From NCBI GenBank assembly GCA_964481135.1, contig CAYZSW010000006.1, forward strand, positions 1 to 63,642: 63,642 nt of DNA, written 5' to 3'. Source of the stretch: an uncultured Candidatus Saccharibacteria bacterium (GTDB lineage: Bacteria; Patescibacteriota; UBA1384; JAMDBS01; DAOVQR01). Below, a report on this DNA, generated by a model with database tools, continues. The DNA itself is not shown here.

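What the first reader, a model, noticed from the sequence alone, without database searches (positions are those of the whole stretch)
11857..12045. A complete tRNA-Thr(CGU) nested inside the D-arm of a second tRNA-Thr(CGU)-like gene, clamped by GC-rich complementary arms
On the minus strand, 12045->12023 reads GCCCACT-TA-GCTT-TAATGGTA-GA, and 11909->11857 reads GC-A-ATTCC-TTCGTAA-GGAAG-AGGTT-ATTGG-TTCAAAT-CCAAT-AGTGGGC-T-CCA. Joined, these make a 76-nt cloverleaf with a perfect 7-bp acceptor stem, a restored D stem (GCTT/GAGC), a canonical T loop and anticodon CGT. The 113 nt between the two pieces have three parts. The first is a 21-nt arm, CCTGCCCGCCAGTCGCTTAGC. The second is an intact 75-nt tRNA-Thr(CGU) (11927..12001). 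The third is a 17-nt arm, GGCGCTTGGCAGACGGG. The arms can pair (CTGCC/GGCAG, CCAG/TTGG, CGC/GCG), so the inner tRNA sits in the loop of a GC-rich hairpin planted in the outer D stem. The inner and outer genes share only about two thirds of their positions, so this is not a simple recent duplication. I see three readings. (a) It is an intron-like or split-tRNA arrangement. RNase P/Z release of the inner tRNA would leave two outer halves held together by the GC clamp, which recalls archaeal split tRNAs but is not something I know from bacteria. (b) A palindromic element carrying a replacement tRNA-Thr inserted into and killed the resident gene. T instead of the near-invariant A at outer position 14 argues for decay. 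(c) It is an assembly chimera. The arm sequence resembles the CCTGTCYGCC / GGCRGACRGG core of the GC islands at 33.2 and 56.9 kb and the junction of the tRNA-Asp repeats.
Basis: partly seen in the sequence, partly recalled or inferred. Interest (0 to 1): 0.9.

Follow-up and report, generated by a model that had tools for sequence, protein, structure and literature searches.

The report, continued
- 68 nt of GC-rich sequence ending ...CGCCCGCCCGCAGCCGCTAGC
- a complete tRNA-Thr(CGU)
- GCGCTTGCAGGCGGGCAG
- a short GCATAATTTC
- a terminator-like hairpin

No 3' half of the interrupted gene is present.

The sequences flanking the L113 tRNA are homologous to the window's arms (joined arms z = 8.5, 0/500 shuffles). 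They include the same unpaired TAGC leader. One base pair is missing from both arms (window GCCA...TGGC, L113 GCA...TGC), so pairing is kept. The L113 arms pair significantly (-27.9 kcal/mol, 5/1000 shuffles). The window's arms pair as 14 bp with three interruptions, -17.4 kcal/mol, which is not better than composition-matched shuffles (266/1000).

The L113 inner tRNA shares the acceptor and T stems of the window's inner tRNA, but it has the anticodon stem of the window's outer gene. This is a mosaic, which suggests gene conversion among these alleles.

**5. A cargo-less relic at the same site**

In L092, the 73 nt between the DUF192 stop codon and the intact tRNA are:

GCCAATGTGGCTTAGCTGGCAGA|TCTGCCCGCTATGCCTTACGACAAAGTATGGCAGGCGGG|GCAATATTTTC

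This aligns collinearly, end to end, with the window's E1 + arm + arm + first 11 nt of E2 once the inner tRNA is removed (z = 10; 0 of 2000 shuffles). By my own count, the E1-like part matches the 5' part of the GCCAATG-type allele of L019 at 19 of 23 positions, against 15 of 23 for the outer type. The hairpin sits at the same point (AGA|...|GCAAT). The relic stops at anticodon position 34, and the intact outer-type tRNA follows directly.

So the element family occupies the same D-stem site in three different tRNA-Thr alleles. In the two cases other than the window, the interrupted gene is clearly dead.

**6. The arms belong to a dispersed hairpin family**

The motif CCTGYCYGCC occurs 10 times in the window against 1.4 expected. 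Pairwise tests give a chain of significant similarity:
- window arms ~ L092 hairpin: z 8.9
- L092 hairpin ~ island C (33222-33260): z 10.6, with shared loop CGACAAAG
- island C ~ island D (56905-56939): z 14.2

The tRNA-Asp tandem unit is not significantly similar to the arms (z 0.3). Island C is absent from the orthologous M23-peptidase/ruvB spacer of L092, so these hairpins are insertion-polymorphic. None matches an Rfam family.

**7. The locus is a recombination and insertion hotspot**

Scans for orphan tRNA pieces found several cases.
- L069 has a 21-nt duplicate of the tRNA-Thr 5' end 88 nt upstream of the gene.
- L043 has two tandem units of about 121 nt, each starting with a tRNA-Thr 5' fragment.
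- L098 has a hybrid tRNA-Thr with a broken acceptor stem, although it encodes the same GT2 protein as L097.
- L019, L021 and L035 each have an intact tRNA-Thr followed within 3-5 nt by a small GIY-YIG ORF (PF01541, E 1e-12 to 1e-14). The 3' end of that ORF runs into a 5'-truncated second tRNA-Thr copy whose D loop holds another GC hairpin.

Breakpoints cluster in the two most conserved blocks of the gene, GGTAGAGCA and TTCGTAA.

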